Made by a program: the position numbers and the translations under genes. From an uncultured Planctomycetia bacterium (GTDB lineage Bacteria; Omnitrophota; Gorgyraeia; 2-02-FULL-51-18): a stretch of 64,000 nt of DNA. The notes under the pieces were generated by a model. That model searched no databases. It had not been told where the DNA came from and was given only the letters and a program-made list of their open reading frames with translations. Within the stretch, counting starts at the first letter, position 1. Each line of letters begins with the position of its first letter. This document shows, piece by piece, positions 9,411 to 29,115 of the stretch. The stretch is taken from positions 2,717 to 66,716 of the forward strand of contig CAZXLF010000002.1 of assembly GCA_964642015.1 (NCBI GenBank), given 5' to 3'.

Positions 9411-9485
9411 ATTTTAATTTTTTATATTTTTCCGAGTCTCTCTGAATGGTGACTCTAACAAATTTCATATGCTGTGTCAACGCTT

Positions 9486-10196: not shown

Positions 10197-10260
10197 TAGA
10201 TTCTCCGCGTTTCGAAAAAGCCCAACGATTTATTCAGATCTTATCCTAACATGATGAGAA

Positions 10261-11358: not shown

Positions 11359-11555
11359 GACATCTTTTCAATATGCTAACAAACGCGCCGCAAGAACGCA
11401 AAACCTTCGCTTTTTTCATTAATGCCGAAAAACTTTATCAGACTGACGAATTTGGTATTAAATATAAGACCGGATATGGTCTGTAAATTTATTTAGATCC
11501 GCCGAGCCCTAAAAGGGTCTTCCCAGCCTCTAGGATCTCATGGTAACATAAAAAA

Positions 11556-13016
11556 ATGCAGGATATTTCGGCCCCATCAAATAATGCTTCGGGCGATCTT
11601 ATAAGCGTGATCATTCCTGCTTGGAACAGAGCTGCGTTCCTGGCGGATGCGATCGAGAGCGTGAATCAACAAAGACACGAAGCGCTCGAGATCATTGTCA
11701 TAGACGATGGGTCAACCGACGATACCCGAAAGATAGCGGAACAATTGAAGGGGAATATCCGCTATATTTTGCAACCTCACCGCGGTGTTGCGGCTGCGCG
11801 CAACGCCGGCATAAAAGCCGCGCGCGGAAACATCATCGCGTTTCTCGACACAGATGACCTCTGGCCTCCCTACAAATTGAACATCCAGCTCGATGCGTTG
11901 AAAAATGGCGCGTTTGAAATGGTTCTGGGCGCGTCTCGCATAGTAAAGCTTTGTGAAAATAGGCAAGAGCCGTTTGTGAGAAATAATTTATCGCCTACAT
12001 TTTCATATCATTTATCGAGCGGACTTTATCAACGAAGTGTTTTTGACAAGATCGGCTTGTTTGACGAGCGTTTGACGCCGAGCGATGATGTTGATTGGTT
12101 TCTTCGGGCACAAGAAGCGGAAGTCCGCGCTTTGATTTTAAGTCAGGAAACGGTGATATGGAGACAGCATGACAACAACATCAGCGTGGGCAAATCGATC
12201 AAAGAGCTGAACCTTTTTAAAGTTTTGAAGGGATCTGTCGACCGGCGCTCGAACGTCAAAAAGAATTTCACTGCGTTTCGTACGTTTGAATATCAAAAGC
12301 CGGATCTTATGGAGGAGCCGCTTATAAGTGTTGTCGTGCCCGTTTGCAATGGCGCGCGCTTTCTGGCAATGGCGCTCAGAAGTATTTTTGATCAATTCTA
12401 CCGTAATTTCGAAGTGATCGTTGTTGATGACGGGTCCGATGATAACAGCGCGGAGATCATAGGCTCGTTCCCAAAAATTACCGCGATCCGCCAAAAAAGA
12501 AAAGGTGTCGCAACCGCTCGCAACACCGGCATCGATGCCGCTCGGGGTGAATTCATCGCTTTTTTAGACCAAGACGATCTTTGGATGCCCAGTAAACTGT
12601 GTTTGCAGATAGCCTGCCATTTAAAGAACTCTAACATCGGTTATTCGCTGACAGGTGAAAAAATTTTTATCGAACCCGGTTCGCCGAGCCCGGCGTGGCT
12701 TAGGAGAGAGATGTTCGATGATCATATTGGTCATGTTCTAGGGGCGATCATGATTAAAAAAAATATTTTTGAACGCGTCGGACTTTTTGATCCAGCGTAC
12801 GAGATCGTTAGTGACGCAGATTGGCTTTTCCGCGCAAAGGATGCCGGAATAACCGCTTATCAATTGACAGACACATTACTTTTGAGAAGGATCCACCAGA
12901 ATAATGTTACTCACCGGCAGTCAGAAATGCGCGCTGAGCTTATGAGATCGCTCAAGGCGTCTGTGGACAGGCAAAATGCGGCTAAAGGTCGTCCATTGAA
13001 ACCTTACGCGGGTTGA
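11556..13016 (+). CDS. Two-domain (tandem) family 2 glycosyltransferase
   Basis: Two GT2 signatures: 'LISVIIPAWNRAAFLADAIESV...IIVIDDGSTDDT' near the N-terminus and 'LISVVVPVCNGARFLAMALRSI...VIVVDDGSDDNS' near aa 260. Each is followed by a DxDD block. Confidence 0.7.
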   Translation: MQDISAPSNNASGDLISVIIPAWNRAAFLADAIESVNQQRHEALEIIVIDDGSTDDTRKIAEQLKGNIRYILQPHRGVAAARNAGIKAARGNIIAFLDTDDLWPPYKLNIQLDALKNGAFEMVLGASRIVKLCENRQEPFVRNNLSPTFSYHLSSGLYQRSVFDKIGLFDERLTPSDDVDWFLRAQEAEVRALILSQETVIWRQHDNNISVGKSIKELNLFKVLKGSVDRRSNVKKNFTAFRTFEYQKPDLMEEPLISVVVPVCNGARFLAMALRSIFDQFYRNFEVIVVDDGSDDNSAEIIGSFPKITAIRQKRKGVATARNTGIDAARGEFIAFLDQDDLWMPSKLCLQIACHLKNSNIGYSLTGEKIFIEPGSPSPAWLRREMFDDHIGHVLGAIMIKKNIFERVGLFDPAYEIVSDADWLFRAKDAGITAYQLTDTLLLRRIHQNNVTHRQSEMRAELMRSLKASVDRQNAAKGRPLKPYAG

Positions 13017-13031
13017 ACGAAAGATCCCTTT

Positions 13032-14171
13032 TTAAGATTTGTCGGCAAAAAGCAAAGGAAGCGAAACGCTTCTCACGGAAGGATCGGCAAATCGAAATAT
13101 CGCTCTATCGATAACGAAATGCATATAAACCGAAGCTGAATTAAAGGCGATGAAAAAGCTTGCTATCCATGGAATAGAGAACGCAGGTTGTAGTAAGGAA
13201 AATAAGATAGGCAAGTTTTTGAACCTATTGGGATTGAACGCAGAATAGATCAGGGGTGTCAGAAAAATGGACACCGCGCACAAGACGAGAACTGTGAGCC
13301 AGAAACGCCGGCTTATGCCACCGATCCATTTGTACCATAGCGAAACCGATTGAGTGTTGCTCCTGTCATTTTGGGCCATGTGGGCGGCGAGGGCTACCGA
13401 AACGATCCAATGTTGGGCTATCCAAAGTATGAAAAAAGATAATGGCTGCAGGAAATAAGCAAGCACGCCCTGAGCCGAAAGGCCTGTCACATAAAGTATT
13501 TTCGGCAGTGAGATCTTTTTAGATCTAAATTCAAAGATGTAAAAAATAACGGTCAGACAAATGATCGAAACCGGCGCGATAATTTTTAGGAAATGAAATA
13601 GAGCGGTAAACGATGTTTGGGGCCACCATCGGTATAAAATGGAATCTTTTACAACTTTTGCGCCGTGCCCCACTTGAGCCAAAGCGACAAGTACGGATCC
13701 TACGGCCAGGCAGAATAATTTTTCGTACTTTTTGAAACCACCGCTCAAATCCTGGCGTGATCGCATGCGATAAATGCTGATAACTCCATAATGCTGAATT
13801 CCTACATGAAAAGTATTATAGAGAAAAAAGATAGTGGCTAATATCTGAGCCTTGACCATTAAACCCAAAGGGATCACGGATAGCGGCATGAATACAAAAG
13901 CGAAGACCGCAAGAAAAATAGCGATCGGCAACAGAACAAAACGCGGATATTGCCGGAGCAAAAGTGGCCGATAAGCCGGATTGCAGAAAGCGTTAAACGA
14001 AGTCGCGAAGCGGTGAGCGATTCCCAGAATTAAAGTAAGGATGATAAAAATTAATCTAAGAATTCTCGGCGCGGAATTATAAACGGCCAATATAACCAAT
14101 AGCCATATTCCTGATAGCATCCAAAATCCATCCCAATAAGCCGACCTTAGCCAGGGATTGGGGTTTTTCAT
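13032..14171 (-). CDS. Polytopic integral membrane protein, possibly a Wzy/O-antigen-polymerase-like or ligase-like protein
   Basis: 379 aa with ≥9 hydrophobic helices and no soluble domain. It sits in a glycosyltransferase neighbourhood. Confidence 0.3.
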   Translation of the reverse strand: MKNPNPWLRSAYWDGFWMLSGIWLLVILAVYNSAPRILRLIFIILTLILGIAHRFATSFNAFCNPAYRPLLLRQYPRFVLLPIAIFLAVFAFVFMPLSVIPLGLMVKAQILATIFFLYNTFHVGIQHYGVISIYRMRSRQDLSGGFKKYEKLFCLAVGSVLVALAQVGHGAKVVKDSILYRWWPQTSFTALFHFLKIIAPVSIICLTVIFYIFEFRSKKISLPKILYVTGLSAQGVLAYFLQPLSFFILWIAQHWIVSVALAAHMAQNDRSNTQSVSLWYKWIGGISRRFWLTVLVLCAVSIFLTPLIYSAFNPNRFKNLPILFSLLQPAFSIPWIASFFIAFNSASVYMHFVIDRAIFRFADPSVRSVSLPLLFADKS

Positions 14172-14434
14172 TGGGTGTCGGCACGGGATTTAGAATATAT
14201 TTATTATTATGGACTTTAATTTGATTGTCAAGCGAACTGAATCCGAATTTGAAACGTGCTGCTGCAATTTTGTCCTCAATTCTGCAGAGATATTTTCGGG
14301 TTTATTCAAAATCTTCGTAATTGCGTCAGTTGAAGCGATATATGCTGGTGTAATTTCATTTTTTTTATTATGATAATCATGTCTATACAATAGGAAACGC
14401 TAAAATCACTAAGAAAATCCCTCTCTTAAACTTC

Positions 14435-15160
14435 TTGCTCGATATTTTTGGATCTCCAAAATCCGTAAAACCAAAAATTTTGGTAATAGGCGGTTCTGGT
14501 CATGTTGGCCGATTGATCCTGCCGTTGATGTCAAATGAATTTGATATTACTGTCTATGATCTCGTTAAACCGCCTAAAGGTTCATGGAAATTTGTCCACG
14601 GCGATGTCCTCAATTTTTTGTCGCTTTGCAAAGCTTGTCAAAATCAAGCGGCGATAGTTTATCTGGCCATGGGAAAGCCGGATGATGATATTCATGCTGC
14701 TTATGATGTGAACGTAAAAGGTCTGCATCTTGCGCTTGAAGCGGCTTGGAAGGCTAAAGTTCCGCGAGCTGTTTATGCTAGCACGTTGTCGATTTATGAA
14801 GACCTTCCCCGGTTCGATGAAGGCGGTGCCGATGATGAAGCGATGGCACCAAGGCCAAGCAGGGTATATGGTTTAAGTAAATTTTTCGGTGAAGAAGTCT
14901 GCCGATTTGTTTCCCGAAAACGCGGAATGACAATATTCGCATTGAGGCTTTTTTTACCTGTTTCTCAGGAAGAACGGCGTGAAAAAAGTATCGCAAGACC
15001 CGTTGATTGCCGAACCAGCGCTCCCGATGTTGCGCGTGCGTTTATCGCAGCGCTTAATACCAGGTATCAAGGCTTCGAAGTTTTTCATATCACCGGCGAT
15101 AGAACGGGCAAAGCATTCTCGCATAGCAAAGCCAAAAAGATCCTGAATTGGTCTCTCTAG
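14435..15160 (+). CDS. NAD(P)-dependent epimerase/dehydratase-family oxidoreductase
   Basis: N-terminal Rossmann motif 'ILVIGGSGHVGRLILPLM', 241 aa. Confidence 0.45.
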   Translation: MLDIFGSPKSVKPKILVIGGSGHVGRLILPLMSNEFDITVYDLVKPPKGSWKFVHGDVLNFLSLCKACQNQAAIVYLAMGKPDDDIHAAYDVNVKGLHLALEAAWKAKVPRAVYASTLSIYEDLPRFDEGGADDEAMAPRPSRVYGLSKFFGEEVCRFVSRKRGMTIFALRLFLPVSQEERREKSIARPVDCRTSAPDVARAFIAALNTRYQGFEVFHITGDRTGKAFSHSKAKKILNWSL

Positions 15161-15261
15161 CTTTTCCATATAAATTGATATGATTCTGCTGTCAACGGAT
15201 CTAAAGAAGTAAGTTTCGAATTTAGTTTGAGTTTTTGTTTAATTGACGCTCTTGGTCGGGC

Positions 15262-15345
15262 AGGATAGAATACGTTTTTTCTATGGTGGGCGCCTGCCTG
15301 CCGGCAGGCAGGTAGCTCAGCTGGGTTAGAGCGTCTGACTGTGGC
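15262..15345 (+). repeat. Composite repeat: a conserved leader, a 22-bp perfect palindrome, and a truncated 5' copy of tRNA-His that ends in the anticodon loop
   Basis: 'caggatagaatacgtttttctatggtgggcgcctgcctgccggcaggcaggtagctcagctgggttagagcgtctgactgtggctc'. Compare the intact tRNA-His at 22998 and the second copy at 20628. Confidence 0.7.
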
Positions 15346-15736
15346 TCTTATCAAGGGCTTTAACACCGTTTCGTTTGGTTTCATTTCTTTTTACAATCCC
15401 TCTACTTAGCGATTTACATGATTTACATGGTGTATGTGACTTAGCTTTGTTTTGGTTGGTGTTTGTCACAATTTTTTCGCATTAAAAATAACCGCGATCA
15501 GAACAACGCGATTCGTTTGAAATAGTTAAACCTCCAGAATATGTAGTCCACGACTATTTAAATTTGACCTCGCAATCAATTGCTTGAAGTCCCAGTTGAA
15601 ACTGTTTTTACTAACTATTTATTATTAAAAGCGATAAGATACTACCCAAATTATGCCGAAAATTTTTAAACGAATATTAAACACCTGCTATATATTATAA
15701 AAAAAAGTACTATAATAATAGGAGAAGGATATCTTT

Positions 15737-16876
15737 GTGAAAGCCATCGCCGTTTTTCCGTCTAAAAAAGAGATCAAGCTTATAGATTATGCTCTTCCCG
15801 AGATAACCAAGCCGACCGACGTCAAAGTCCGTGTTCTCGAAGTCGGTATTTGCGGAACCGATAAAGATATCTGTACATTTCAGTACGGTACTTCGCCGGT
15901 AGGCTCCGAATATTTGGTGATCGGCCATGAGTGTTTGGCCCAGGTGGTCAAGGTCGGTTCGAAAGTATCAGGTCTATCCGTCGGCGATCTGGTGGTGCCG
16001 ATGGTCCGGCGGCCGTGCCATCACCGGAGCTGTTTTGCCTGCCGGGCCGACCGCCAGGATTTTTGCTTCACGGGTGATTTCACCGAGAGAGGCATCAAAG
16101 AGGCGCACGGCTTTATGACGGAGTTTGTCGTCGACGATGAAAAATATTTTAATCGCGTGCCGAAGGAATTACGCGATGTCGCTATTCTTACGGAACCTCT
16201 GACGATCGCTGAGAAAGCGCTGATACAGATCTGGCAGGTGCAGCAGAGACTTCCCTGGGGACCGGGACCGAAAGGGCAAAAGCCGGGTTACTGTCACAAA
16301 GCGGTTGTTTTAGGAGCGGGGCCTGTGGGGCTTTTAGGAGCGATGGCGCTCTTGAATGCGCGTTTTGAAACCACTGTTTATTCGCGCGAATCGATCTCAA
16401 GTCCCGAAGCTTCTTTTATCCAGTCTGTAGGAGGATCTTATGTTTCCTCCGAGGCCGAAACGTTGGATGATTTTGCAAAGCGCATAGGCAATATGGATCT
16501 TGTGTATGAAGCCACGGGAGCCGCGCAGATCTCTTTTGACATGATGAAAGTGTTGGGCACGAATGGTGTCATGGTTTTCACGGGAATCCCCGGAATAAAA
16601 GGCCCGATAGAGGTCGAAGCGGATCAGATCATGAGGAATATGGTGCTGAAGAATCAGGTTTTTTTTGGGACAGTCAATGCGGGCCGCCAAGCGTTTAAGT
16701 CAGCTATTAAGGATCTGGCAATTTTTGAAAAGCGCTGGCCGAAAGCCGTTCGTTCGCTGATCACCGGCCGTTACGAGATGGAGAACTACCGTGATCTTCT
16801 TTTAGGGCCCAAGAAAGGGATAAAAAATATTTTAGTGCTGGATAAAAATCCTACGATAAAAAAGGCGAAAAAATAA
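15737..16876 (+). CDS. Zinc-dependent alcohol/sugar dehydrogenase of the MDR family (GTG start)
   Basis: 'GHECLAQVVKVG', 'VLGAGPVGLLGAMAL', and Cys ligands 'CHHRSCFAC'. Confidence 0.65.
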   Translation: MKAIAVFPSKKEIKLIDYALPEITKPTDVKVRVLEVGICGTDKDICTFQYGTSPVGSEYLVIGHECLAQVVKVGSKVSGLSVGDLVVPMVRRPCHHRSCFACRADRQDFCFTGDFTERGIKEAHGFMTEFVVDDEKYFNRVPKELRDVAILTEPLTIAEKALIQIWQVQQRLPWGPGPKGQKPGYCHKAVVLGAGPVGLLGAMALLNARFETTVYSRESISSPEASFIQSVGGSYVSSEAETLDDFAKRIGNMDLVYEATGAAQISFDMMKVLGTNGVMVFTGIPGIKGPIEVEADQIMRNMVLKNQVFFGTVNAGRQAFKSAIKDLAIFEKRWPKAVRSLITGRYEMENYRDLLLGPKKGIKNILVLDKNPTIKKAKK

Positions 16877-16881
16877 TTTTA

Positions 16882-17517
16882 ATGGTCTCTCATTTGATTG
16901 ATATTTCCGTAACGTTAAAATCCGGAATGGTCCATTGGCCCGGCGACCCGCCGGTTAAGATCACCGGCACGCACTCTATTTCAAAAGGAGATGCTGCGAA
17001 TGTATCGAAGATCGATATGGGCTCTCACACCGGGACTCATATGGACGCGCCGTATCATTTTATTCCGGCCGGAAAAAAAATAGATCAGATGCCGCTTGAC
17101 GCGGTTGTCGGCGAGGCGAGAGTCATAGAAATTCGTGATAAAAAGTCCGTCAAGCCGGAAGAGTTGAGGCGTCATAATATTCGACGCGGTGAAAGAATTT
17201 TAATTAAGACCGTCAATTCATCCCGATGCTGGAAAAAAAATTCGTTCGCGGAAGATTTTGTATATATTTCTCTTGAAGCAGCAAAGTTTTTGGCCGAACG
17301 CCGCATCCGAGCGGTCGGCGTCGATTATCTTTCTGTCGGAGGCTATAAAGAGGATGGTTCTGCCACACACCGCGCGCTTTTAAAAAGCGGGATCTGGATC
17401 ATCGAAGGTTTAAATCTATCGGGTGTAAAAGCCGGAAAGTATGAGCTTATTTGTCTTCCGCTGAAATTTTGGCATGGAGACGGAGCGCCGGCCCGCGCGA
17501 TTTTGAGGAAAAAGTAA
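16882..17517 (+). CDS. Cyclase-family protein, arylformamidase-like
   Basis: The HxGTHxDAPxH motif appears as 'GSHTGTHMDAPYHF'. Confidence 0.65.
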   Translation: MVSHLIDISVTLKSGMVHWPGDPPVKITGTHSISKGDAANVSKIDMGSHTGTHMDAPYHFIPAGKKIDQMPLDAVVGEARVIEIRDKKSVKPEELRRHNIRRGERILIKTVNSSRCWKKNSFAEDFVYISLEAAKFLAERRIRAVGVDYLSVGGYKEDGSATHRALLKSGIWIIEGLNLSGVKAGKYELICLPLKFWHGDGAPARAILRKK

Positions 17518-17530
17518 AAGGAGAAAAGTT

Positions 17531-18502
17531 ATGGCCAGTAAAATGGAATGGGGACTTGTGGGCATGGGAAAAATGGGAGCGAATCTGGCTCTCCAAGCGC
17601 TTGAAAAAGGCATGAACGTCGTAGGTTTTGATTTGAAAAAAGCGCCGGATGAATATTTGAAAGCGGGCCTTGTTCAGATCCCGCGCATTGAAGATTTTAA
17701 ACAGAAGCTTTCGAAACCGCGCGCTATCTTTGTTTATATTCCCGCAGGACCTGCGGTTGACAAAGTTCTCGATGATCTGGCTTCAAAGCTGGAGGTGGGA
17801 GATATTTTGGTGGACGGAGGAAATTCTTACTGGGGAGATTCGATACGGCGTCACCGGAGATTCAAATCAAAAGGAATTCATTTTGTTGATCTCGGGACCA
17901 GCGGAGGAGTTGACGGTGCGCGTCACGGAGCCTGCTTCATGGCCGGAGGCGAAAAAGAAGCGATAGCCAGGATCGAGCCAATATTAAAAGAGTTGGCGAT
18001 CAAAGACGGCTATGTTCACGCGGGCCCTCCGGGCGCGGGACATTTCACGAAATTGGTTCACAACGGCATTGAATTTGGAATGCTTCAAGCGATCGGCGAA
18101 GGAATAGACCTTTTGGAACATTATCGCGATAAATTGGATGTCGCCGAAGTTTTGCGTTGTTGGCGCCATGGTTCGGTGATCCGTTCGTGGCTTGTGGATC
18201 TTATGGAAGCGGCTTACCGTTCCGACGGCGGTCTTGAAAAAATCCCGCCGTATGTTGAAGATACGGGCGAGGTCAATTGGCTCGTAGACGACGCGATGCA
18301 TATGGAAGTGCCGGTGCCGGTCATCGCACAGTCGGTGATGCAGCTGTTGGCTTCAAGGGACCAAAAAAAATATTGGGCGCGCGCGATCGCAATGATGCGT
18401 CATGGTTTTGGCGGGCATCCTTTCAGCGCGGATCAGGGGATAGTCCGCGAGCGCCGCGAAGGCCGTATCGGAGGATTTTTGAAAGAGGGCCAAGATGCCT
18501 AG
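17531..18502 (+). CDS. gnd: 6-phosphogluconate dehydrogenase (decarboxylating)-like, short Gnd/YqeC type
   Basis: 'GLVGMGKMGANLALQALEKGMNVVGFD' and 'HFVDLGTSGG', ~320 aa. Confidence 0.6.
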   Translation: MASKMEWGLVGMGKMGANLALQALEKGMNVVGFDLKKAPDEYLKAGLVQIPRIEDFKQKLSKPRAIFVYIPAGPAVDKVLDDLASKLEVGDILVDGGNSYWGDSIRRHRRFKSKGIHFVDLGTSGGVDGARHGACFMAGGEKEAIARIEPILKELAIKDGYVHAGPPGAGHFTKLVHNGIEFGMLQAIGEGIDLLEHYRDKLDVAEVLRCWRHGSVIRSWLVDLMEAAYRSDGGLEKIPPYVEDTGEVNWLVDDAMHMEVPVPVIAQSVMQLLASRDQKKYWARAIAMMRHGFGGHPFSADQGIVRERREGRIGGFLKEGQDA

Positions 18503-20471
18503 AAATATTCCGGTCGGTAACGGTTCACTGCTCGTGATGTTCGATGAAAATTATTTGATCAGGGACCTGTATTTCCCGCACGTCGGTTCGGAAAATCACA
18601 CGATAGGACATCCTTTCAGATTTGCCGTGTGGGTAGACGGCCAATTCAGCGAAATGGGCCCCGAATGGCAAAAAGAATTGCGTTATTTGGACGACGGCTT
18701 GACGACCGAGGTGAAGGCTAAAAACGACAGACTCGGCATTGAGCTTGTTTGCTCCGACGCGGTGGATTTTCATCTGAATGTTTATATCAAGAAAATTACC
18801 GTAAAAAATCTAAGGAACCAGGCTAGGGATCTACGCTTATTTTTCAGCCACGATTTTCATATTTCAGGAAACGAAGTCGGCGATACGGCCAATTATGACC
18901 CCAGAAATCAGGCGCTGATCCATTACAAAGACAAACGGTATTTTTTGATCAATTGTTGTAATGAAAAAAAATACGGCGTCGAGCATTTCGCCTGCGGGCT
19001 TAAAGAAACTCAGGGGTTGGAAGGGACTTGGAGAGATGCCGAGGACGGCGTACTTTCCGGTAGCGCCGTGGCTCAGGGTTCCGTGGACTCGACGGCAGGA
19101 ATAAATGTACCGTTGGCCGCCAACTCATCGGCAACCGCTTATTATTGGATATGCGCCGGAAAAAATTATCAGGAAGTGATAGCGTTGAATAAAACTGTCC
19201 AAGAAAAAACGCCTGAACTCCTGCTGAGCCGCACGTCGAATTATTGGAAACTCTGGATCAGCAAAGAATTGTGCCCCGACGGTGAAATGCTTTCACAGAA
19301 AATTTTTCAGCTTCTCAAAAGAAGCCTTCTCATCATACGTACTCAAATAGACAACGACGGCGCGGTCATTGCCGCCAATGACACAGATATCCTGGCTTTT
19401 TCCAGAGATACATACTCTTATATGTGGCCGAGAGACGGCGCTTTTGTGACGGCCTCGCTGATCGAAGCCGGCTATTCGGAAGCCTCCAGAAAATTTTTTA
19501 ATTTTTGTAACAATCTCATCGATCCGGATGGTTTTTTCCTCCACAAATTCAGTCCTGACGGTTCTGTAGGCAGCACTTGGCACGCTTGGTGGAGGGACGG
19601 GCATCATGAACTTGCGATCCAGGAAGATGAGACCGCGCTCGTGCTATGGGCGCTTTGGCGCCATTTTGACCGTTTTCATGATGTGGAATTTATCAAACCG
19701 CTTTATCGCAATATGATCATACGCGCAGCGGAGTTCATGGTGCGTTATCGTGACGAGAAAACAAAACTTCCGCAGCCTTCCTACGATTTATGGGAAGAAC
19801 GCCGCGGTGTGCACACTTTTACGGTTTCAACGGTTTTTGCCGGCCTCACGGCCGCGGCGAATTTTGCCGAGGCCTTCGGAGAAAATGATCTGTCCGCCAA
19901 ATATCGCGCGGCGGCGCAGGAGATAAAGCAATCAATGAAACAGTATATGTTTCATAAAGACTTGAACCGCTTTGCCAAGATAGCTAACCCAAATCAGGCC
20001 AACGGAAAATATGATCTTGATATGACGATTGACGCGAGCCTTATCGGCTTGTGGTACTTTGGCGTTTTTGCTCCGGAGGATCCGTTGGTGGCGTCTACCA
20101 TGAAAGCCGTTTATGATAGGCTTTGGGTAAAAATAGGCGCGGGAGGCATGGCCCGGTACGAAAATGACGCTTATTATCAGGTCGAGAAGAATGACATTCA
20201 GAACGTCCCGGGAAATCCTTGGTTTATCTGCACGCTTTGGTGGGCGCAGTATTTAATCGCAAAGGCCAAAACAAAAGAAGATTTAAAAGAACCTTTCCGA
20301 ATTCTTGAATGGGCCGCGGATCATGCGATGCCTTCGGGTGTGTTGGCTGAACAGGTCCATCCGCGAACGGATGCGCCTCTTTCGGTCTCTCCTCTAACCT
20401 GGAGTCACGCGGCATATGTGCTCGCTGTGTTTGAATATGTCGATCGTACGAATTGTATCAACGCTAAATAA
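18495..20471 (+). CDS. Glycoside hydrolase family 15 (glucoamylase/glucodextranase-like)
   Basis: GH15 motifs 'SYMWPRDGAFV' and 'YDLWEERRG', 658 aa. Confidence 0.6.
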   Translation: MPRNIPVGNGSLLVMFDENYLIRDLYFPHVGSENHTIGHPFRFAVWVDGQFSEMGPEWQKELRYLDDGLTTEVKAKNDRLGIELVCSDAVDFHLNVYIKKITVKNLRNQARDLRLFFSHDFHISGNEVGDTANYDPRNQALIHYKDKRYFLINCCNEKKYGVEHFACGLKETQGLEGTWRDAEDGVLSGSAVAQGSVDSTAGINVPLAANSSATAYYWICAGKNYQEVIALNKTVQEKTPELLLSRTSNYWKLWISKELCPDGEMLSQKIFQLLKRSLLIIRTQIDNDGAVIAANDTDILAFSRDTYSYMWPRDGAFVTASLIEAGYSEASRKFFNFCNNLIDPDGFFLHKFSPDGSVGSTWHAWWRDGHHELAIQEDETALVLWALWRHFDRFHDVEFIKPLYRNMIIRAAEFMVRYRDEKTKLPQPSYDLWEERRGVHTFTVSTVFAGLTAAANFAEAFGENDLSAKYRAAAQEIKQSMKQYMFHKDLNRFAKIANPNQANGKYDLDMTIDASLIGLWYFGVFAPEDPLVASTMKAVYDRLWVKIGAGGMARYENDAYYQVEKNDIQNVPGNPWFICTLWWAQYLIAKAKTKEDLKEPFRILEWAADHAMPSGVLAEQVHPRTDAPLSVSPLTWSHAAYVLAVFEYVDRTNCINAK

Positions 20472-20627
20472 AAGGAAATTATCTAAAAACCTAAAAAATC
20501 CATTAGTTTAGTGAAAAATATTTTATCGCGACCTTTTAACGTATATGTTATTGATTCATACCCAACCTCAGCTATCCATATAGTGAAATTCTGATCTTTT
20601 TGTTTAATTGAAGTTCTTTGCTGGGCA

Positions 20628-20770
20628 GGATAGAATACGGTTTTTCTATGGTGGGCGCCTGCCTGCCGGCTGGCAGGTAAAGCGTCGGCGGACTTCACAG
20701 CGCGTGTCGATTTTGAAAGAATTTGGTGGGCGTAGCTCAGCTTGGTTTGAGCGTCTGACTGCGGCTCTGC
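20628..20770 (+). repeat. Second composite repeat: leader, palindrome variant, tRNA-His upstream region, and a truncated 5' tRNA-His copy
   Basis: 'gggcaggatagaatacggtttttctatggtgggcgcctgcctgccggctggcagg...aaagcgtcggcggacttcacagcgcgtgtcgattttgaaagaatttggtgggcgtagctcagcttggtttgagcgtctgactgcggctc' is near-identical to 22908..23040 up to the anticodon loop. Confidence 0.7.
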
Positions 20771-21006
20771 CCAGAGCTTTATCACCATTTCATTTAGTTT
20801 GATTTTCATTCACAATCTCTCGAAACACGACTCCGCCATTTACCACCAATTACGTGGTTTGATACACTGTTTGCTACTATAGTGCCACTGGTTTATAACT
20901 TGCAGTTAGCGCAGGGCGAGATGAGGATATACAATAGGAGTTCGATTTGATAAAATCTATTTTCATCAAAATATTTTTTAAGGGGTATATTTGATCTATT
21001 AAATCC

Positions 21007-21288
21007 ATGAAATTAAAATATCCCTTTTTTCTCACAGTACCTTTTCTCTTAATATCCAATACTATTTATGCTGAAAAACAAAACACACAGGAGGATTTGT
21101 ATTCTGGGATAAAAAAGGATATCGGCGATCCTGACCGCCCTTTTCAGGTAAAGTTGAACGAATATAATGCCTATTTTTCTACGGGTGAAGAGGCGAATGC
21201 GGATCAAGATGATTCAGAGGAAATTGCAATAAAAGACCCAGATAAAACGTCCCCTTATTTTGAAGTAGGTCTCAGGAAAAAATATTAG
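21007..21288 (+). CDS. Small secreted hypothetical protein
   Basis: N-terminal signal peptide 'MKLKYPFFLTVPFLLISNTIYA', acidic tail. Confidence 0.35.
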   Translation: MKLKYPFFLTVPFLLISNTIYAEKQNTQEDLYSGIKKDIGDPDRPFQVKLNEYNAYFSTGEEANADQDDSEEIAIKDPDKTSPYFEVGLRKKY

Positions 21289-21307
21289 ATAATTAAAAAC
21301 AAGATAA

Positions 21308-22624
21308 ATGTTAACCAAATTTATTGATAGTATAACTTCCAAGGCATCACCTCAAAAGGTTGGCCAGCGTCTCAGGAGTACTCCGCGTAGCTATTTTGAT
21401 TGGAGAAAAGAAAAGAGCTTTAAAGCCGTCGTGAAATATGCCTATAAAAACTCGCCGTTCTATAAACGTAAATTTGAAGAGTTTAAGATTGATCCTAATA
21501 AAGTAAAAAAACCGGAAGATTTGGGTAATTTTTACACTGTTCCGGAAGATATCATTAACTTTGCCGAGGAATTTTTATGTCAAAAACCTCATATTGTTTT
21601 CGAATCTTCGGGAACCACAGGAAAGAATAAAAGGATTTATTTCACACAAGAAGAGCTGAATAACATCGGTAAATACAATGCCATCGGTTTATACGGTTTG
21701 GGTCTTTCCCCGGAAGATCGCATTGTCAATGCTTTTGATTTTTGTGTTTGGATTCCAGGAATGGTTACCCATAAAGGCATAGAGAGAGCTAAGATTTTCT
21801 GCATGGCCGCCGGAAAGATCGAACCGATGGAAGTATATAAACGAATACCCATTTACAAATTTAATGTCGTAATGGGAGAACCGACCTGGCTTATCAAACT
21901 GACCGAGTTAGCGGAAAAGCACGGTTCTCATCCTTTAAAAATGATCATCGGCGGTGCAGAGGCGATGCCGGAAGCGGCCAGGCCCTGGATGGAGAAAGTG
22001 TGGCAGGGAGCTAAAGTTCGTATGGCTTATGGAACAGTCGAGTCGGGCGGTACCCTTGCATTTGAACTTGATCCCGTATGCAAGGCCTATCACGTTAATG
22101 AAAACAATTTTTATGTGGAAATATTCAATCCTGATGAGAACGGTTTTGGAGAAGTCGTCTTTACGACATTAGACAGGACAACAATGCCACTCATTCGGTA
22201 TAGAAATCGCGATATCAGCAAGATCATAGAAGAAAAATGCTACTGCGGACTGTCTTACCGAAAACTGGAGAAGATTCGCGGGCGTACCGATGAGATGGTT
22301 GTTGCGTCCGGTGGCAACTTGTATCCGCTCATGTTTCAAGAGATTTTAAAAGATATTCCAGGAATATCGAATGATTGGCAAGTCATTTTTATGCTGAAAG
22401 GGATCAAAGAAGTCATGCAGTTTCATTTAGAAACCCACACAATGAATGGTGCCAATAAGATCCTGGAAGAAAAGATTTTTGAGAATATCCAAAGGCTTTA
22501 CCCCGATCTTTGGAAGAATTATATGTTAGGGATTTTTAAGATCGATTTTGCTTACCATTTGCCAAACAGTATTCGCACTCAAAGAAAAATGGTTCGTTTG
22601 GTCGATAGACGATATGTCGACTGA
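21308..22624 (+). CDS. Adenylate-forming enzyme, PaaK / CapK / F390-synthetase family
   Basis: 'FESSGTTGKNKRIYF' (AMP-binding P-loop) and 'YGTVESGG'. Confidence 0.6.
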   Translation: MLTKFIDSITSKASPQKVGQRLRSTPRSYFDWRKEKSFKAVVKYAYKNSPFYKRKFEEFKIDPNKVKKPEDLGNFYTVPEDIINFAEEFLCQKPHIVFESSGTTGKNKRIYFTQEELNNIGKYNAIGLYGLGLSPEDRIVNAFDFCVWIPGMVTHKGIERAKIFCMAAGKIEPMEVYKRIPIYKFNVVMGEPTWLIKLTELAEKHGSHPLKMIIGGAEAMPEAARPWMEKVWQGAKVRMAYGTVESGGTLAFELDPVCKAYHVNENNFYVEIFNPDENGFGEVVFTTLDRTTMPLIRYRNRDISKIIEEKCYCGLSYRKLEKIRGRTDEMVVASGGNLYPLMFQEILKDIPGISNDWQVIFMLKGIKEVMQFHLETHTMNGANKILEEKIFENIQRLYPDLWKNYMLGIFKIDFAYHLPNSIRTQRKMVRLVDRRYVD

Positions 22625-22997
22625 AAAAGATTTATTTATATTCTATCCAGTATTTTTTTTGATGCTGTGAATGAGAGTGACATTTGTCATCCGAATCAGA
22701 GTCAGACGACGCTCTAAAGACTGTTTTATATTTTACCGTAACTCGTTCTAAACTCAGAAAGAGAATGCGTTAAGTAGTTTGGTCTAACTCTCGCCTAACA
22801 CAATAAGCCCCACCAAATAGGTAATTGACCTTCAAAGGCAAAATCAATAGAATACCAATGCTACCCGAACACTTTTTTCAACATTCTTTTTTAGTTTAGG
22901 TTTTTTGGTGGGCGCCTGCCTGCCGGCAGGCAGGCAGTTCAGCCCGCCACTAAAGCGTCGGCGGACTTCGCAGCGCGTGTCGATTTTGAAAGAATTT

Positions 22998-23076
22998 GGT
23001 GGGCGTAGCTCAGCTTGGTTAGAGCGTCTGACTGTGGCTCAGAAGGTCGCGAGTTCAAATCTCGTCGCCCACCCCA
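22998..23076 (+). tRNA. tRNA-His (GUG) with encoded G-1 and CCA
   Basis: Cloverleaf read by hand. Acceptor gtgggcg/cgcccac, extra 5' G opposite discriminator C, anticodon loop 'ctGTGgc', T-arm gcgagttcaaatctcgt, 3' CCA. Confidence 0.85.
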
Positions 23077-23301
23077 GATTTTGAAGCTGATTTTTTATTT
23101 CTACCCCAAAATCCATAGTGGGTTTTAGGATTTGAAGAGAGCGCCAAAATTAGCGAACGGTCCTGACCCAGCCCGCCTGCCGGAAGACGGGGAGCCGAGG
23201 TGCACTGCCTGAATTGTAAATAGTGAAGGCAGAGAATAAAAAAGATCTCACCCGAGGTCTTGCGGCTGTGATTATAATGCGAGGCTCTAAGTCGGCGGCA
23301 A

Positions 23302-25557
23302 TCAGTTCTTTTTATCGAGAATTTCGCGGATGATAAGCAGAAGTTCGGCGTGTGTATAAGGTTTTTGTATAAAGCGACAGCCTTTATCCAGCCATTTTTG
23401 CACGACGCTCTGGTCGGAATAACCCGAAGTGAAGAGGATCTTCATTTCGGGGTATTTTTTGAACACATTTTCTGCCAGTTCGTTTCCGCCCATTTGAGGC
23501 ATCACCATATCGGTGAAGATCAGTTTTGGCGCAGACACGTGGCCGCTCAATATTTTTAACGCTTCGAGCCCGGTAGAAGCTTCTTCCACTTGAAAACCCT
23601 GATGAGTGAGGATTTGAAAAGCCAGCGTGCGGACAAGCTCTTCATCCTCTACGATAAGGATAGACTCAATGCCGCGTGGCAACGGCGAAGAAGCCGTAGT
23701 TTCTTTTTTATCTATTTTTTCATCGGAAGGCGGTAGATAGACAAGGAACGCAGTGCCTTTACCGACCTCGCTTTCGGCATAGATGTAACCTCTTGACTGT
23801 TTGACGATACCGTATACGGTCGCAAGACCCAAACCGGTGCCTTTACCTTTTTCCTTTGTCGTAAAAAAAGGCTCGAACAAATGTGATTTGACCTCGGAAG
23901 GAATGCCGCAACCCGTATCTTTTATTTTCAATAAAACATAATCTCCAGGGATCATGCCCATGTAGTGTGCAGCGGTTTTAGAGTCGACCGCCGTTTCCGA
24001 AGTCTCAATGATAAGCTTCCCTCCGTTCGGCATCGCATCTCGGGCGTTCACGACTAAGTTCATCAGAACTTGTTCGATCTGAGCGGGGTCCACTTTGATC
24101 GGTTTCAAATTCTCATTCAGAATAACGACCATCTCAATATCTTCGCGTAATAACCGGCGGAGGAGTTTATCGGTATTTCGAATGATCTCGTTCAAATCCA
24201 TCACTTTGATCTGGAAGATCTGTTTACGGCTGAACGCCAGAAGCTGGCGCGTGAGGTTCGCGGCACGATCCCCGGTCTTCCGTATTTCTTGAACATAGTT
24301 CAGAATAGGACTTTCAGGAGTTATTTTGGAAAGCAAAAGGTCGCAGTTGCCGAGAACAATTGTCAAAAGATTATTGAAATCGTGGGCAACCCCGCCGGCC
24401 AACCGTCCGACCGCCTCCATTTTTTGCGCTTGTCTGAATTGAGCCTCCAGCTTTTTATCGGATGAAATGTCCTGCTTGATCGCTATGAAATGCGTAATTT
24501 TATTCTCGGCGTCTTTAACAGGAGTAATCGTTTGTTTTTCAAAATAAAGCGAGCTATCTTTTCGGCGATTGATCAACTCGCCGGTCCATGTATTTCCGGC
24601 AAGGATCGTTGCCCATAATTGTTTGTACAGCTCAGGTGATTGCTCTCCGGATTTCAGGATGCGCGGTGTTTTTCCGACAGCTTCCTCAAAAGAGTAGCCC
24701 GTCATATTTGTGAAAGAGATATTTACCCATAGGATCACGCCATGCACGTCCGTGATCACGATCCCGTTCGATGCCGCTTCGAGCGTTTTCGATTGAAGGG
24801 CCATCTTCTCTTCATTTGTTTTGCGCTCGGTGATGTCGCGCGCGATGCCTGTGATGCTTTCAACTTCGCCGTTTGGATCTAAAATGGGGATCAATTTGGT
24901 GCTGAGCCATCTCTCACCGGTAGGGAACAAAAGTTTTTCTTCTAAGTGATATGATTTCTTGGATTGTATTACGGTCTCAAAATTTTTCTTTATCCATAGA
25001 TAATCTTTTTCAGAGAAGATCTCACTTAAATATTTTCCGATCACCTGATCCGGAGGCGCCTTGAACAAGCTTGCGGAAAAAGTGTTGGCGTAGATTATAC
25101 GGCAATCTTTTCTGCATTGAAAGATCGCATCTTCGGCCGATTCGGTTAGTGTTTTATACCGTTGCTCGCTTTCTGATAAAGCATTTTGCATTTTTTTTCT
25201 GTGTTCTATATCTCTGAGTACGATCAGTATTTCTGAATCGCCATCATCATATTTGATCAGCTGGGAATGGACTTCATAGGGATGTCGGGAACCATCTTTA
25301 AATATAAACTCCATTTCATACGGAGGCCTTTCTTTCTGGACCAATGTCAGCGCAAATTCACTCATTGCTTTTGGAAGTGACAATGCTGAAATGACACCGG
25401 CTGTGGCAAACGAGTGTCCAACCAGCTCAGAGGAGGAGTAGCCGGAAATTTTTTCAGCCTGGTGATTTAGACTTTTTATGGACCCGTTAGAAGCGAGCAC
25501 TACGATGGGGTCCGGCGCTGAAAATAGCAGTTTTTCGTACCGATCGTTTTTATTCAT
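23302..25557 (-). CDS. Hybrid sensor histidine kinase with multiple PAS domains and a C-terminal receiver
   Basis: H-box 'VAHDFNNLLTIVLGNCDLL', HATPase G-boxes, C-terminal 'ILIVEDEELVR...TDMVMPQMGG'. Confidence 0.8.
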   Translation of the reverse strand: MNKNDRYEKLLFSAPDPIVVLASNGSIKSLNHQAEKISGYSSSELVGHSFATAGVISALSLPKAMSEFALTLVQKERPPYEMEFIFKDGSRHPYEVHSQLIKYDDGDSEILIVLRDIEHRKKMQNALSESEQRYKTLTESAEDAIFQCRKDCRIIYANTFSASLFKAPPDQVIGKYLSEIFSEKDYLWIKKNFETVIQSKKSYHLEEKLLFPTGERWLSTKLIPILDPNGEVESITGIARDITERKTNEEKMALQSKTLEAASNGIVITDVHGVILWVNISFTNMTGYSFEEAVGKTPRILKSGEQSPELYKQLWATILAGNTWTGELINRRKDSSLYFEKQTITPVKDAENKITHFIAIKQDISSDKKLEAQFRQAQKMEAVGRLAGGVAHDFNNLLTIVLGNCDLLLSKITPESPILNYVQEIRKTGDRAANLTRQLLAFSRKQIFQIKVMDLNEIIRNTDKLLRRLLREDIEMVVILNENLKPIKVDPAQIEQVLMNLVVNARDAMPNGGKLIIETSETAVDSKTAAHYMGMIPGDYVLLKIKDTGCGIPSEVKSHLFEPFFTTKEKGKGTGLGLATVYGIVKQSRGYIYAESEVGKGTAFLVYLPPSDEKIDKKETTASSPLPRGIESILIVEDEELVRTLAFQILTHQGFQVEEASTGLEALKILSGHVSAPKLIFTDMVMPQMGGNELAENVFKKYPEMKILFTSGYSDQSVVQKWLDKGCRFIQKPYTHAELLLIIREILDKKN

Positions 25558-25707
25558 ACAAATTTTCAGATAGAACGGCGATTATTGTATTATGAATTAT
25601 AAATGCTATACTATATTAATATATTTTAACAAAAAGCAAAAGATAGCATATTATACTACATTATAATAAGTAAACAGAGCTAAATCAACAGCCAAACTAT
25701 TATTCAA

Positions 25708-26487
25708 ATGGTAGAGACTGACCCAAAAAAAGATCTGTTAACCGACGAATCAGAAAAAACCAAAATATTGTGGTTTTTGGGCCTGTTATCAATTTGCACG
25801 ACACCGATCTTTATCTATGGATATTCCAAATGGGGGGCGCCGGCTGCGAGCTTCGCCGTCCTTTTGTCGGTACCGTTTTTTTTACTCAATTATATTATAT
25901 GGCGTATTTTTCATTCTTCGGCTTTTGCCGGTAATTTTATCATTGCGATAGGTTATTTTTTATTTTTGGCCATCTCTATCTATACCGGAGGTGTGGATTC
26001 ACCGGCAATCATATGGACAGTCGCTATACCCATGGTCGCGACGACTATTTGCGGTCTAAGATCGGGATTTGTCTGGTTTGTGCTGGTGGTTCTAAAGATC
26101 GGTATTTTAGAATGGATGGATTTTCACGGGAACCATTTTATACATGAGATCCCCGAAGGAAGGGAGTTAGATATAGCTTTTTGCGTTAATACGATAGCGG
26201 TCGTATTTTTTACTTTTTTTATTTCCGCAAGTTCCGAATTTTATAAAGAAAAATATCTTAAGAGGATCAGAGAAAGCAATGAACAGCTCCAAAAAGCGTT
26301 GGATAGCATCCGCACTTTAAAAGGCCTTTTGCCGATCTGCGCCTGGTGTAAAAAGATCCGCAATGACAAGGGTTATTGGGACAAATTGGAAACGTATGTG
26401 TCCGCGAATACGGAAGCCGAATTCACGCATGGCATTTGCCCTGAGTGTTTGTCCAAGCAGATAAAGAAAGTTAATCCTGCGCTGTGA
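25708..26487 (+). CDS. Membrane sensor protein: a 6–7 TM N-terminal domain and a C-terminal Cys-rich zinc-ribbon-like motif
   Basis: Hydrophobic helices, then 'LKGLLPICAWCKKIRNDKGYWDKLETYVSANTEAEFTHGICPEC'. Confidence 0.4.
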   Translation: MVETDPKKDLLTDESEKTKILWFLGLLSICTTPIFIYGYSKWGAPAASFAVLLSVPFFLLNYIIWRIFHSSAFAGNFIIAIGYFLFLAISIYTGGVDSPAIIWTVAIPMVATTICGLRSGFVWFVLVVLKIGILEWMDFHGNHFIHEIPEGRELDIAFCVNTIAVVFFTFFISASSEFYKEKYLKRIRESNEQLQKALDSIRTLKGLLPICAWCKKIRNDKGYWDKLETYVSANTEAEFTHGICPECLSKQIKKVNPAL

Positions 26488-26506
26488 AAATCAAGGCTGA
26501 GTTCTA

Positions 26507-27855: not shown

Positions 27856-27857
27856 CC

Positions 27858-28622: not shown

Positions 28623-28637
28623 GCGAGGAGATGTGAT

Positions 28638-29063: not shown

Positions 29064-29115
29064 TTTAAATGACAGGTCTAAAGGTTATATTGAAATTTTG
29101 AAAGGAGGTAATGCA

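What the first reader, a model, noticed from the sequence alone, without database searches (positions are those of the whole stretch)
15262..23076. Truncated tRNA-His 5' halves fused to a 22-bp perfect palindrome precede two gene blocks; the intact tRNA-His follows the second block
A composite element occurs at 15262–15345 and 20628–20770. It consists of a conserved leader ('caggatagaatacgNtttttctatggtgggcg'), the palindrome 'gcctgcctgccggcaggcaggc' (or variant), and tRNA-His nt 1–~36 ending inside the anticodon loop. The same two parts sit upstream of the real tRNA-His at 22908–23076.

The copy at 20.7 kb also carries the 60-bp tRNA-His upstream region.

Each element sits immediately upstream of a + strand gene block:
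- 15737–20471 encodes an alcohol dehydrogenase (ADH), a cyclase, 6PGDH and a GH15 enzyme;
- 21007–22624 encodes a secreted peptide and a CapK-like ligase.

Reading A: these are att-site remnants of serial integration at tRNA-His of elements that carry the tRNA 5' part and cross over in the anticodon loop. The two blocks would then be integrated islands.

Reading B: the strong tRNA promoter plus palindromic operator has been co-opted as a portable promoter and regulatory module.

No integrase is present, so the islands, if real, are old or were mobilised in trans.
Basis: seen in the sequence. Interest (0 to 1): 0.58.

Follow-up and report, generated by a model that had tools for sequence, protein, structure and literature searches.

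The report
Repeated tRNA-His front halves bracket two gene blocks
Two small gene blocks next to the histidine tRNA gene of an uncultured Omnitrophota-like bacterium each start with a copy of the tRNA's promoter region and front half, which is the known scar pattern of mobile DNA inserting one after another into a tRNA gene, but here no integrase gene remains.

Summary
Three same-strand copies of the tRNA-His 5' region exist: 15232-15347, 20597-20767, and 22907-23040 inside the intact gene (22998-23076).

The truncated copies end after tRNA nucleotide C40, two bases past the anticodon loop, not at about nt 36. Beyond the break they share a 53-90 nt arm (D, 74% identical) that is unrelated to the tRNA 3' half. 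Upstream they share a sigma-70-like promoter, TTGAcG/TTGAaG-N17-TAGAAT.

Orientation, configuration and breakpoint fit a tandem array of two islets (5.4 and 2.3 kb) recombined into tRNA-His, with the incoming DNA supplying promoter plus 5' half. This is a known minority class: 159 of 3,919 Islander islands.

Against this reading:
- There is no integrase anywhere in the 64 kb.
- The blocks have ordinary composition.
- Their genes are conserved Omnitrophota operons found in other contexts in relatives.

One relative (L060) shows a mirror image: the tRNA-His 3' end plus a terminator module, repeated three times around the same glucose-dehydrogenase operon.

Verdict: degenerate, integrase-less tandem tRNA islets (confidence about 0.5). 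Recombinational operon shuffling with promoter co-option is the main rival. Interest is modest.

The parts
15232..15284 (+). Copy 1, leader L with the promoter-like site TTGACG-N17-TAGAAT (15243-15271)
   Evidence: It is 88.7% identical over 53 nt to 20597-20649.
15285..15312 (+). Copy 1, GGTGGGCG followed by the 20-nt palindrome
15313..15347 (+). Copy 1, tRNA-His nt 8-40 (1 mismatch to the gene)
15348..15430 (+). D1, the arm downstream of the break. It is homologous to D2 and unrelated to the tRNA 3' half.
15737..20471 (+). Block 1: glucose 1-dehydrogenase, cyclase, 6PGDH-like protein and GH15. Its own upstream region 15607-15683 is conserved in relative L063.
20597..20649 (+). Copy 2, leader L with the promoter-like site TTGAAG-N17-TAGAAT (20608-20636)
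20650..20677 (+). Copy 2, GGTGGGCG followed by the palindrome (1 mismatch)
20678..20724 (+). Copy 2, 47-nt pre-tRNA leader spacer, 46 of 47 identical to 22951-22997
20725..20767 (+). Copy 2, tRNA-His G-1 to C40 (2 mismatches; the anticodon reads GCG)
20768..20850 (+). D2, the arm downstream of the break
21007..22624 (+). Block 2: a 93-aa protein with a signal-like N-terminus, then an AMP-binding ligase. Homology to relatives L054/L055 covers only 20992-22630.
22825..22853 (+). Promoter-like site TTGACC-N17-TAGAAT upstream of the intact tRNA-His
22906..22949 (+). Extended hairpin in the real leader: outer stem UGGUGGGC/GCCCGCCA around the 22-nt perfect palindrome
   Evidence: The leader folds with z = -3.3.
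22951..22997 (+). 47-nt leader spacer of the intact gene
22998..23076 (+). Intact tRNA-His(GTG), with encoded G-1 and CCA

Best explanation
The region is a degenerate tandem array of two small, integrase-less islets recombined into the single tRNA-His gene. Islet 1 is 15348-20767 (5,420 bp). Islet 2 is 20768-23040 (2,273 bp).

**Proposed mechanism (inferred)**
- Each incoming circular DNA carried an attP-like segment: promoter, leader and tRNA-His nt -1 to 40, followed by the arm D.
- Crossover took place in or next to the anticodon loop.
- The incoming 5' part, with its promoter, was joined to the resident 3' half. This regenerated a working gene at the right end.
- The previous 5' part, with its promoter, was displaced to the left end.
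- A second event at the regenerated gene gave the array.

**Shown:** the repeat anatomy, the breakpoint, the promoter-like sites and the absence of an integrase in the window.

**Inferred:** the recombination was site-specific, by a tyrosine integrase acting in trans or since lost; the order of events; and that the displaced promoters now read into the co-oriented blocks as a side effect.
For: 1. The 5' fragments lie upstream of the intact gene and in its orientation. This is the only configuration Islander accepts for 5' fragments. Islands with 5' fragments are a known minority: 159 of 3,919, with 125 tandem arrays.
2. Both fragments break after C40, 2 nt from the anticodon loop, which is one of the usual crossover sublocations (Islander table).
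3. Past the break, both copies continue into homologous arms. D1 against D2 beats all 1,000 shuffles. These arms show no similarity to the tRNA 3' half or to its downstream DNA. The fragments are therefore junctions, not decayed whole genes.
4. Divergence is graded: the tRNA and leader parts are 91-98% identical, L is 89% and D is 74%. That is expected if D1 and D2 come from two related but already diverged elements. It is harder to get from one junction duplicated in place.
5. Every copy has a TTGAnn-N17-TAGAAT site upstream. An element that replaces the 5' side of the gene would need one.
6. No 3'-half copies exist in the window.
7. Relative L060 has tRNA-His followed by three copies of its 3' end plus a 73-nt terminator module. 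These bracket a DUF347 block and the orthologous glucose-dehydrogenase operon.
8. Other tRNAs in the window carry direct repeats of their 3' ends around a small conserved element. Duplication of tRNA ends therefore recurs in this lineage.
Against: - No integrase, excisionase or other mobility gene is present in the islets, and none was found in the scanned ORFs across the 64-kb window. The non-coding gaps are too short to hide a remnant.
- GC3 and codon usage of the block genes are within the window's range.
- Both blocks are conserved Omnitrophota operons.
- Block 1 keeps its own upstream region, shared with L063.
- In L064 the same operon is followed directly by the PKD and rhodanese genes that lie 13 kb further right in the window. 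This hints that block 1 is an old neighbour of that region.
- Block 2 is the first two genes of a longer operon in L054.
- The element-side right arms show no similarity beyond the shared leader: 20472-20596 against 22625-22906.
- No empty site or closer relative could be found.
- Homologous (RecA) single crossover of a circle carrying the same segment would leave the same scar.
Confidence: 0.5

Rival explanations
1. Native operons were shuffled by ordinary recombination, with no dedicated integrase. One illegitimate event created a junction between tRNA-His nt 40 and D. That promoter-bearing module was then duplicated and moved with neighbouring operons by homologous or unequal recombination. 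The copies persist because they work as promoters.
For: - No integrase is present.
- The blocks have native-like composition.
- The blocks are phylum-typical operons found in a different context in every relative examined.
- L064 shows synteny of GH15 with PKD and rhodanese.
- L and the leader are better conserved than D, and five of the six L mismatches fall in the -35 hexamer or the spacer between it and the -10 box, leaving the -10 box and all but one base of the start region unchanged.
- Both blocks are co-oriented with the promoters, and no terminator-like site lies between promoter and genes.
Against: - D1 and D2 differ by about 26% while the adjoining tRNA parts differ by 3-9%. A single junction duplicated in place should show similar divergence on both sides.
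- The break lies exactly at a classical integrase sublocation.
- Block 1 has its own conserved upstream region, so it does not need the module.
- The orientation and configuration match the integration scar exactly.
Confidence: 0.25
2. The module is mainly a functional regulatory cassette (Reading B). A strong tRNA-type promoter plus a GC-rich hairpin or operator at about +8 to +36 sets the transcription or stability of the downstream block. The tRNA piece is a passenger.
For: - Promoter-like sites score 9-10 of 12 in all three copies, and two of them are among the five sites sharing the top score (10 of 12) in the 9-kb region scanned.
- The -10 box TAGAAT also precedes tRNA-Lys (seen directly in the sequence).
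- The palindrome is retained in all copies.
- The same 28-nt GGTGGGCG-plus-palindrome unit recurs in unrelated contigs L040 and L047 without any tRNA-His. It is therefore a unit in its own right.
Against: - There are no transcript data.
- No candidate regulator gene lies nearby.
- The hairpin is truncated in copies 1 and 2: the outer-stem 3' strand is missing. The palindrome carries a mismatch in copy 2.
- Promoter-like matches in the region are only mildly enriched: 21 found against 14.4 +/- 4.1 expected.
- This reading does not explain the shared break and the D arm.
Confidence: 0.12
3. The order is an assembly or population artefact. A 50-nt exact repeat (20698-20747 = 22971-23020) could have been threaded wrongly. 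The true state could be tRNA-His directly after copy 2's leader, with block 2 as a separate 2.27-kb circle, or a mixture of both states.
For: Independent Logan contigs from three runs all stop 30 nt into this repeat: L051 ends at about 20727, L001 spans 20718-23000, and L048/L049 end at 22991. No held contig crosses copy 2 or copy 3.
Against: - A 50-nt repeat can be spanned by ordinary reads, and mismatches on both sides phase it.
- Copy 1 and its flanks are assembled identically in three runs.
- Even under the alternative threading, the fragment, the D junctions and copy 1 remain.
Confidence: 0.05

Closest known systems
tRNA-gene (tDNA) genomic islands with a displaced 5' fragment, and tandem island arrays, as catalogued by Islander/TIGER (PMC4383910, PMC7192596)
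   Same: - An intact tDNA plus a cognate end fragment in the same orientation.
- The 5' fragment lies upstream.
- The break is at the anticodon-loop sublocation.
- Successive integrations give arrays.
- Islander counts 159 islands with 5' fragments and 125 tandem arrays among 3,919 islands. TIGER describes how a second element integrates into a regenerated att site.
   Different: - Those catalogues require an integrase gene in each island. Here there is none in either islet, and none was found in the scanned ORFs of the 64 kb.
- The islets are very small: 2.3 kb is at Islander's lower limit.
- The shared block is long, at 115-170 nt, and includes the promoter and leader.
- The cargo consists of conserved metabolic operons with native composition.
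Integrase-less att-flanked elements (CIMEs) and accretion with ICEs in Streptococcus thermophilus. This comparison is recalled from the literature and was not checked here.
   Same: Short cargo segments are bounded by att sites. They lack integration and conjugation genes, sit in tandem at one target, and are thought to be mobilised in trans.
   Different: - No partner ICE or integrase is known for this genome.
- The target there is the 3' end of a protein gene, not a tRNA 5' half.
Tycheposon-driven islands next to tRNA genes in Prochlorococcus (bioRxiv 10.1101/2020.12.28.424599)
   Same: Islands grow next to one full-length tRNA. Partial tRNAs lie between successive integrations. Degenerate remnants and cargo are left behind without integrases.
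   Different: Active integrase-carrying elements are documented there. None is seen here, and the phylum and targeted tRNA differ.
REP-like GC-rich hairpin repeats (relevant to the palindrome only)
   Same: This is a GC-rich perfect hairpin in an AT-rich genome. The same 28-nt unit occurs in unrelated uncultured bacteria, once inside a cluster of hairpin repeats (L040).
   Different: The window holds only the three copies, all inside the tRNA-His module. No RAYT-type transposase was seen. Copy number across the whole genome is unknown.

Membership tests
tDNA-integrated genomic island (Islander definition) | An intact tRNA gene plus a cognate end fragment on the same replicon, in the same orientation | tested here: met
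   There are three + strand copies. Copy 2 carries G-1 to C40. Copy 1 carries nt 8-40, with nt -1 to 7 separated from it by the palindrome.
tDNA-integrated genomic island (Islander definition) | Configuration: a 5' fragment must lie upstream of the intact gene | tested here: met
   The fragments are at 15.3 and 20.7 kb and the gene is at 23.0 kb, all on the + strand. The rule is quoted.
tDNA-integrated genomic island (Islander definition) | A tyrosine integrase gene inside each island | tested here: not met
   Pfam and NCBIfam scans of 50 of the window's 57 ORFs of at least 150 aa, including every large ORF in and next to the islets, found no integrase or recombinase.
tDNA-integrated genomic island (Islander definition) | Break at a known crossover sublocation (anticodon loop, T loop, or T/acceptor junction) | tested here: met
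   Identity ends after C40, 2 nt 3' of the anticodon loop, in both fragments.
tDNA-integrated genomic island (Islander definition) | Length between 2 and 200 kb | tested here: met
   The islets are 5,420 and 2,273 bp between equivalent repeat ends.
tDNA-integrated genomic island (general) | Absent from the same site in related genomes (empty attB), or foreign in composition | tested here: inconclusive
   - No close relative exists: every window protein checked is a singleton at 90% identity.
- Distant relatives place the operons elsewhere.
- Composition is not atypical.
tDNA-integrated genomic island (general) | Excision to a circle with attP, and regeneration of attB | not testable with these tools
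   This needs read-level analysis of the SRR12313477, SRR12313479 and SRR12313480 runs, or PCR.
Integron gene cassettes | An IntI integrase with attI and Pc, and cassettes ending in attC hairpin sites | tested here: not met
   No integrase is present in the window. The repeat unit is tRNA-derived and lies 5' of each block.
REP / BIME elements (palindrome only) | Many dispersed copies of an imperfect palindrome, often with a RAYT transposase | tested here: inconclusive
   The window holds only 3 copies, all in the module. The same unit occurs in the unrelated contigs L040, L047 and L008. Whole-genome copy number is unknown.
Known RNA families (Rfam 15) | A covariance-model match for the fragment, leader or D | tested here: not met
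   Only the intact tRNA scores, both at gathering threshold and at E <= 1 over 15100-23400.

The most novel reading that the evidence does not exclude
In Omnitrophota, tRNA-His may anchor an integrase-free, or trans-served, cassette exchange system. Conserved operons such as the glucose-dehydrogenase operon would move as units.
- Each unit would carry an end of the tRNA gene together with that end's regulatory DNA.
- In this genome that is the promoter plus the 5' half. In the L060 lineage it is the 3' end plus a terminator.
- The recombination scar would then double as the cassette's own promoter or terminator.

The tRNA-trailing elements seen after four other tRNAs could be small members of the same tRNA-end-copying process.
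Probability: 0.12. Interest if true: 0.6.

Novelty: new member of a known kind. Interest (0 to 1): 0.36.

Why it matters
If the reading is right, this is a clear example of the rarer mirror-image tRNA integration. In this form the incoming DNA must bring the promoter and front half of an essential tRNA gene. The example comes from a poorly studied candidate phylum.

It would also show how small metabolic operons can be left behind as integrase-less islets whose displaced tRNA promoters point into them.

In practical terms, it warns annotators that tRNA-His 5' fragments here mark recombination junctions. It also identifies three direct repeats that break short-read assemblies of this organism.

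Tried and rejected
**Scans that found no relatives of the module**
- A genome-contig scan with GGTGGGCG plus half the palindrome gave 45 loci. Nearly all were chance hits in GC-rich genomes, and the window's genome and its relatives were absent.
- A metagenome scan with the 28-nt unit gave one unrelated contig, L047.
- Viral-contig scans for the 28-nt unit, the fragment/D junction, the D motif and the tRNA-trailing core each returned 0 hits.

**Flank genes as anchors for an empty site**
- The closest homologue of the right-flank histidine kinase (61% identity) is not syntenic and has no tRNA nearby.
- I suspected the left-flank epimerase was truncated by an insertion. It is full length: homologues of 235-255 aa align end to end.

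**Ideas about D and the fragments that were rejected**
- D as a decayed tRNA 3' half: rejected.
- 3'-half copies elsewhere in the window: none.
- Similarity between the two right arms, or between D and the DNA downstream of the tRNA: none above shuffles.
- An inverted copy of D that would suggest transposon ends: none, with both strands searched.
- Split-tRNA or intron readings: rejected. There is only one 3' half, the break is outside the loop, and copy 2 has a mutated anticodon.

**Other negative results**
- No Rfam family matches the module.
- Composition gives no evidence of foreign origin.
- L060 fragment 1 as a decayed full-length tRNA is only marginal (129 of 2,000 shuffles did as well).

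Full report
**1. What is in the sequence**

The window holds one tRNA-His(GTG) gene at 22999-23076, with an encoded G-1 at 22998 and an encoded CCA.

Its 5' region occurs three times on the + strand:
- The 36-nt segment GTAGCTC...GGCTC is found at 15312, 20732 and 23005 with 1, 2 and 0 mismatches. None are expected by chance.
- The 20-nt palindrome CCTGCCTGCCGGCAGGCAGG is found at 15293, 20658 and 22915.

A three-way alignment and ungapped comparisons give this anatomy.

| Copy | Span | Contents, in order |
|---|---|---|
| 1 | 15232-15347 | leader L, GGTGGGCG, palindrome, tRNA nt 8-40 |
| 2 | 20597-20767 | L, GGTGGGCG, palindrome (1 mismatch), 47-nt leader spacer, tRNA G-1 to C40 |
| 3 | 22907-23040 | GGTGGGCG, perfect 22-nt palindrome, 16 extra nt, the same 47-nt spacer (46 of 47 identical), then the whole gene |

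- Copy 1 looks like copy 2 after a 55-nt deletion between GTA microrepeats.
- Identity to the gene stops in both fragments after C40, two bases beyond the anticodon loop.
- After the break, copies 1 and 2 continue into a shared arm D. It is 73.6% identical over the first 53 nt, with weaker similarity out to about 90 nt.
- D1 against D2 beats all 1,000 shuffles. Neither D resembles the tRNA 3' half or the DNA downstream of the gene.
- No copy of the 3' half exists elsewhere in the window.

**2. Promoters and the hairpin**

Consensus scans find three promoter-like sites:
- TTGACG-N17-TAGAAT at 15243-15271.
- TTGAAG-N17-TAGAAT at 20608-20636.
- TTGACC-N17-TAGAAT at 22825-22853.

The same TAGAAT -10 box precedes tRNA-Lys (sequence). 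The motif GTCGATTTT just upstream of the mature 5' end is shared with other tRNAs in the window. The 47-nt spacer is therefore a genuine pre-tRNA leader.

In the real leader, the upstream GGTGGGCG is not only a copy of the acceptor 5' strand. It pairs with GCCCGCCA in the 16 extra nucleotides to form an outer stem around the palindrome. The result is a 44-nt extended hairpin, and the leader folds with z = -3.3.

The 28-nt GGTGGGCG-plus-palindrome unit also occurs, without any tRNA-His, in three other places:
- An unrelated uncultured-bacterium contig, L040, inside a cluster of hairpin repeats.
- A groundwater metagenome contig, L047.
- A Chloroflexi MAG, L008, where it occurs twice, each copy matching 27 of the 28 nt.

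It is therefore a unit in its own right, perhaps REP-like. Its role is unknown.

**3. The gene blocks and the organism**

- Block 1 (15737-20471) encodes a glucose 1-dehydrogenase, a cyclase-family protein, a short 6PGDH-like dehydrogenase and a GH15 hydrolase.
- Block 2 (21007-22624) encodes a 93-aa protein with a signal-like N-terminus and an AMP-binding, phenylacetate-CoA-ligase-family enzyme.
- The named best homologues of the ligase and the dehydrogenase are from Candidatus Omnitrophota.
- The window's proteins are singletons at 90% identity. The same strain appears in three Logan runs.
- Those short-read contigs stop 30 nt into the 50-nt exact repeat shared by copies 2 and 3. This is expected for k = 31 unitigs. 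It means no held contig independently confirms the threading across copies 2 and 3.
- The scanned large ORFs, spread across the whole 64 kb, contain no integrase, recombinase or other mobility domain.
- The left-flank epimerase-like gene is full length.
- The block genes are not outliers in GC3 or codon usage.

**4. Relatives**

Block 2:
- The two-gene pair is 80% identical at the DNA level to L054/L055. There it follows atpGDC and tRNA-Asp and continues into ACP and desaturase genes.
- Homology with the window is confined to 20992-22630.
- Ligase paralogues or orthologues at 84-86% identity sit in yet other contexts.

Block 1:
- Its operon occurs in L062, L063 and L064 in different surroundings.
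- L063 (88% protein identity) shares the operon's own upstream region, 15607-15683, but not D1.
- In L064 the same four genes are followed directly by a PKD-domain gene and a rhodanese gene. Their window orthologues lie at 33.6-36 kb.

These results argue that both blocks are long-standing Omnitrophota operons, not exotic cargo.

The most telling relative is L060 (81% dehydrogenase identity):
- An intact tRNA-His lies 2.3 kb upstream of the operon.
- The last approximately 17 nt of that tRNA, plus 73 nt of downstream DNA with two hairpins, occur three times in direct orientation (100%, 82% and 71% identity).
- These repeats bracket a DUF347 block and the dehydrogenase block.
- This is the mirror image of the window, and it too lacks an integrase.
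- I could not decide whether the L060 repeats are att scars or a dispersed terminator repeat. The extension of fragment 1 into the tRNA is 8 of 12 beyond ACCCCA, and a full-length decayed copy is only marginal.

**5. Interpretation**

The anatomy matches the signature used to map islands in tRNA genes. That signature is an intact gene plus a displaced end fragment in the same orientation, with 5' fragments upstream.
- Islands with 5' fragments are a known minority: 159 of 3,919.
- Tandem arrays are known: 125 cases.
- The anticodon loop is one of the usual crossover sublocations.
- Second integrations into regenerated att sites are described.

Three features favour two related incoming elements over one junction duplicated in place:
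- The shared break beside the anticodon loop.
- The homologous but clearly older divergence of D (74%) compared with the adjoining tRNA and leader parts (91-98%) and with L (89%).
- A promoter in each copy, which an element that replaces the 5' side of an essential gene would need.

I therefore take Reading A as the best explanation, at about 0.5. Either an integrase acted in trans or it has been lost.

The displaced promoters point into co-oriented blocks with no terminator-like site in between. Reading B may therefore hold as a side effect. Block 1's own conserved upstream region shows that it does not depend on the module.

The main rival, at about 0.25, is recombinational shuffling of native operons with retention of the module as a promoter. 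The lack of an integrase, the native composition and the synteny hints all favour it. A RecA-mediated single crossover of a circle carrying the same segment would leave an identical scar, so site-specificity is not shown.

**6. Novelty**

This is a new member of a known kind: degenerate tandem islets at a tRNA gene, of the 5'-fragment class. Three unusual details stand out:
- No integrase.
- A very long shared block that includes the promoter and leader.
- Cargo consisting of conserved metabolic operons.

The mirror-image arrangement in L060 is the one element that could lift it above the ordinary.

Interest is 0.36.

**7. Seen in passing**

- Four tRNAs in the window (Arg-TCG, Lys, Gly and, in diverged form, His) and tRNA-Asp in L064 are followed by a conserved element of 110-170 nt.
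- Its 5' motif is the reverse complement of the cognate T-loop and T-stem.
- In the Arg-TCG, Lys, Gly and L064 tRNA-Asp copies, its 3' end is a direct copy of the cognate T-loop-to-3'-end segment. The His copy lacks this repeat.
- Both parts change with each tRNA.
- No Rfam family matches it.

Noticed in passing
window 37565-37756, 37986-38112 and 38345-38485; diverged copy at about 23120-23200; L064 2789-2977: A conserved 110-170 nt 'tRNA-trailing element' directly follows tRNA-Arg(TCG), tRNA-Lys, tRNA-Gly and, in diverged form, tRNA-His. It also follows tRNA-Asp in relative L064 (nhmmer E = 1.4e-7).
- Its 5' motif, AGGAyTCGAA (ATTTGAA after His), is the reverse complement of the cognate T-loop and T-stem.
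- In the Arg, Lys, Gly and L064 Asp copies, its 3' end is a 17-26 nt direct copy of the cognate T-loop-to-3'-end segment; the His copy lacks this repeat.
- Both parts co-vary with each tRNA: 7 of 23 predicted pairs show compensatory changes.
- There is no Rfam match and no viral-contig match.

It could be a miniature tRNA-targeting integrative element or a tRNA-linked structured RNA.
   Followed up: partly
L060 7712-7801, 9834-9923 and 17163-17252: In an Omnitrophota relative, the tRNA-His 3' end plus a 73-nt two-hairpin terminator module is repeated three times in direct orientation. The repeats bracket a DUF347 block and the orthologous glucose-dehydrogenase operon. No integrase is present in the 21 kb held.
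   Followed up: partly
window 22906-22949; L040 3983-4010; L047 7783-7810; L008 2808-2835 and 3074-3101: The 28-nt unit GGTGGGCG plus the CCTGCCTGCCGGCnGGCAGG palindrome recurs in unrelated uncultured bacteria with no tRNA-His nearby. In L040 it lies inside a cluster of GC-rich hairpin repeats; the two L008 copies match 27 of 28 nt. In the window's real tRNA-His leader it is the core of a 44-nt extended hairpin.
   Followed up: partly
window 20472-33595, compared with L064 14687-15205: In relative L064 the GH15 gene is followed directly by PKD-domain and rhodanese genes. Their window orthologues are at 33596-34849 and 35458-35982. The 13 kb in between is absent at that position in L064. It holds copy 2, block 2, tRNA-His, a PAS hybrid kinase, an ECF sigma/anti-sigma pair, response regulators, a glucanase, a kinase and tRNA-Arg(CCG).
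   Followed up: partly
window 20725-20767: The truncated copy 2 has the anticodon position mutated from GTG to GCG, plus a D-stem-adjacent change. This is consistent with neutral decay of a non-functional fragment.
   Followed up: yes
window 1-15160 and 52676-63914: The tRNA-His region is flanked on the left by a large polysaccharide and glycosyltransferase cluster that includes a PqqD-like gene and an HPr-kinase-like gene. Further right lie three radical-SAM genes, an S24/S26-like peptidase and an ABC-2 exporter, which might form a peptide-modification cluster.
   Followed up: no
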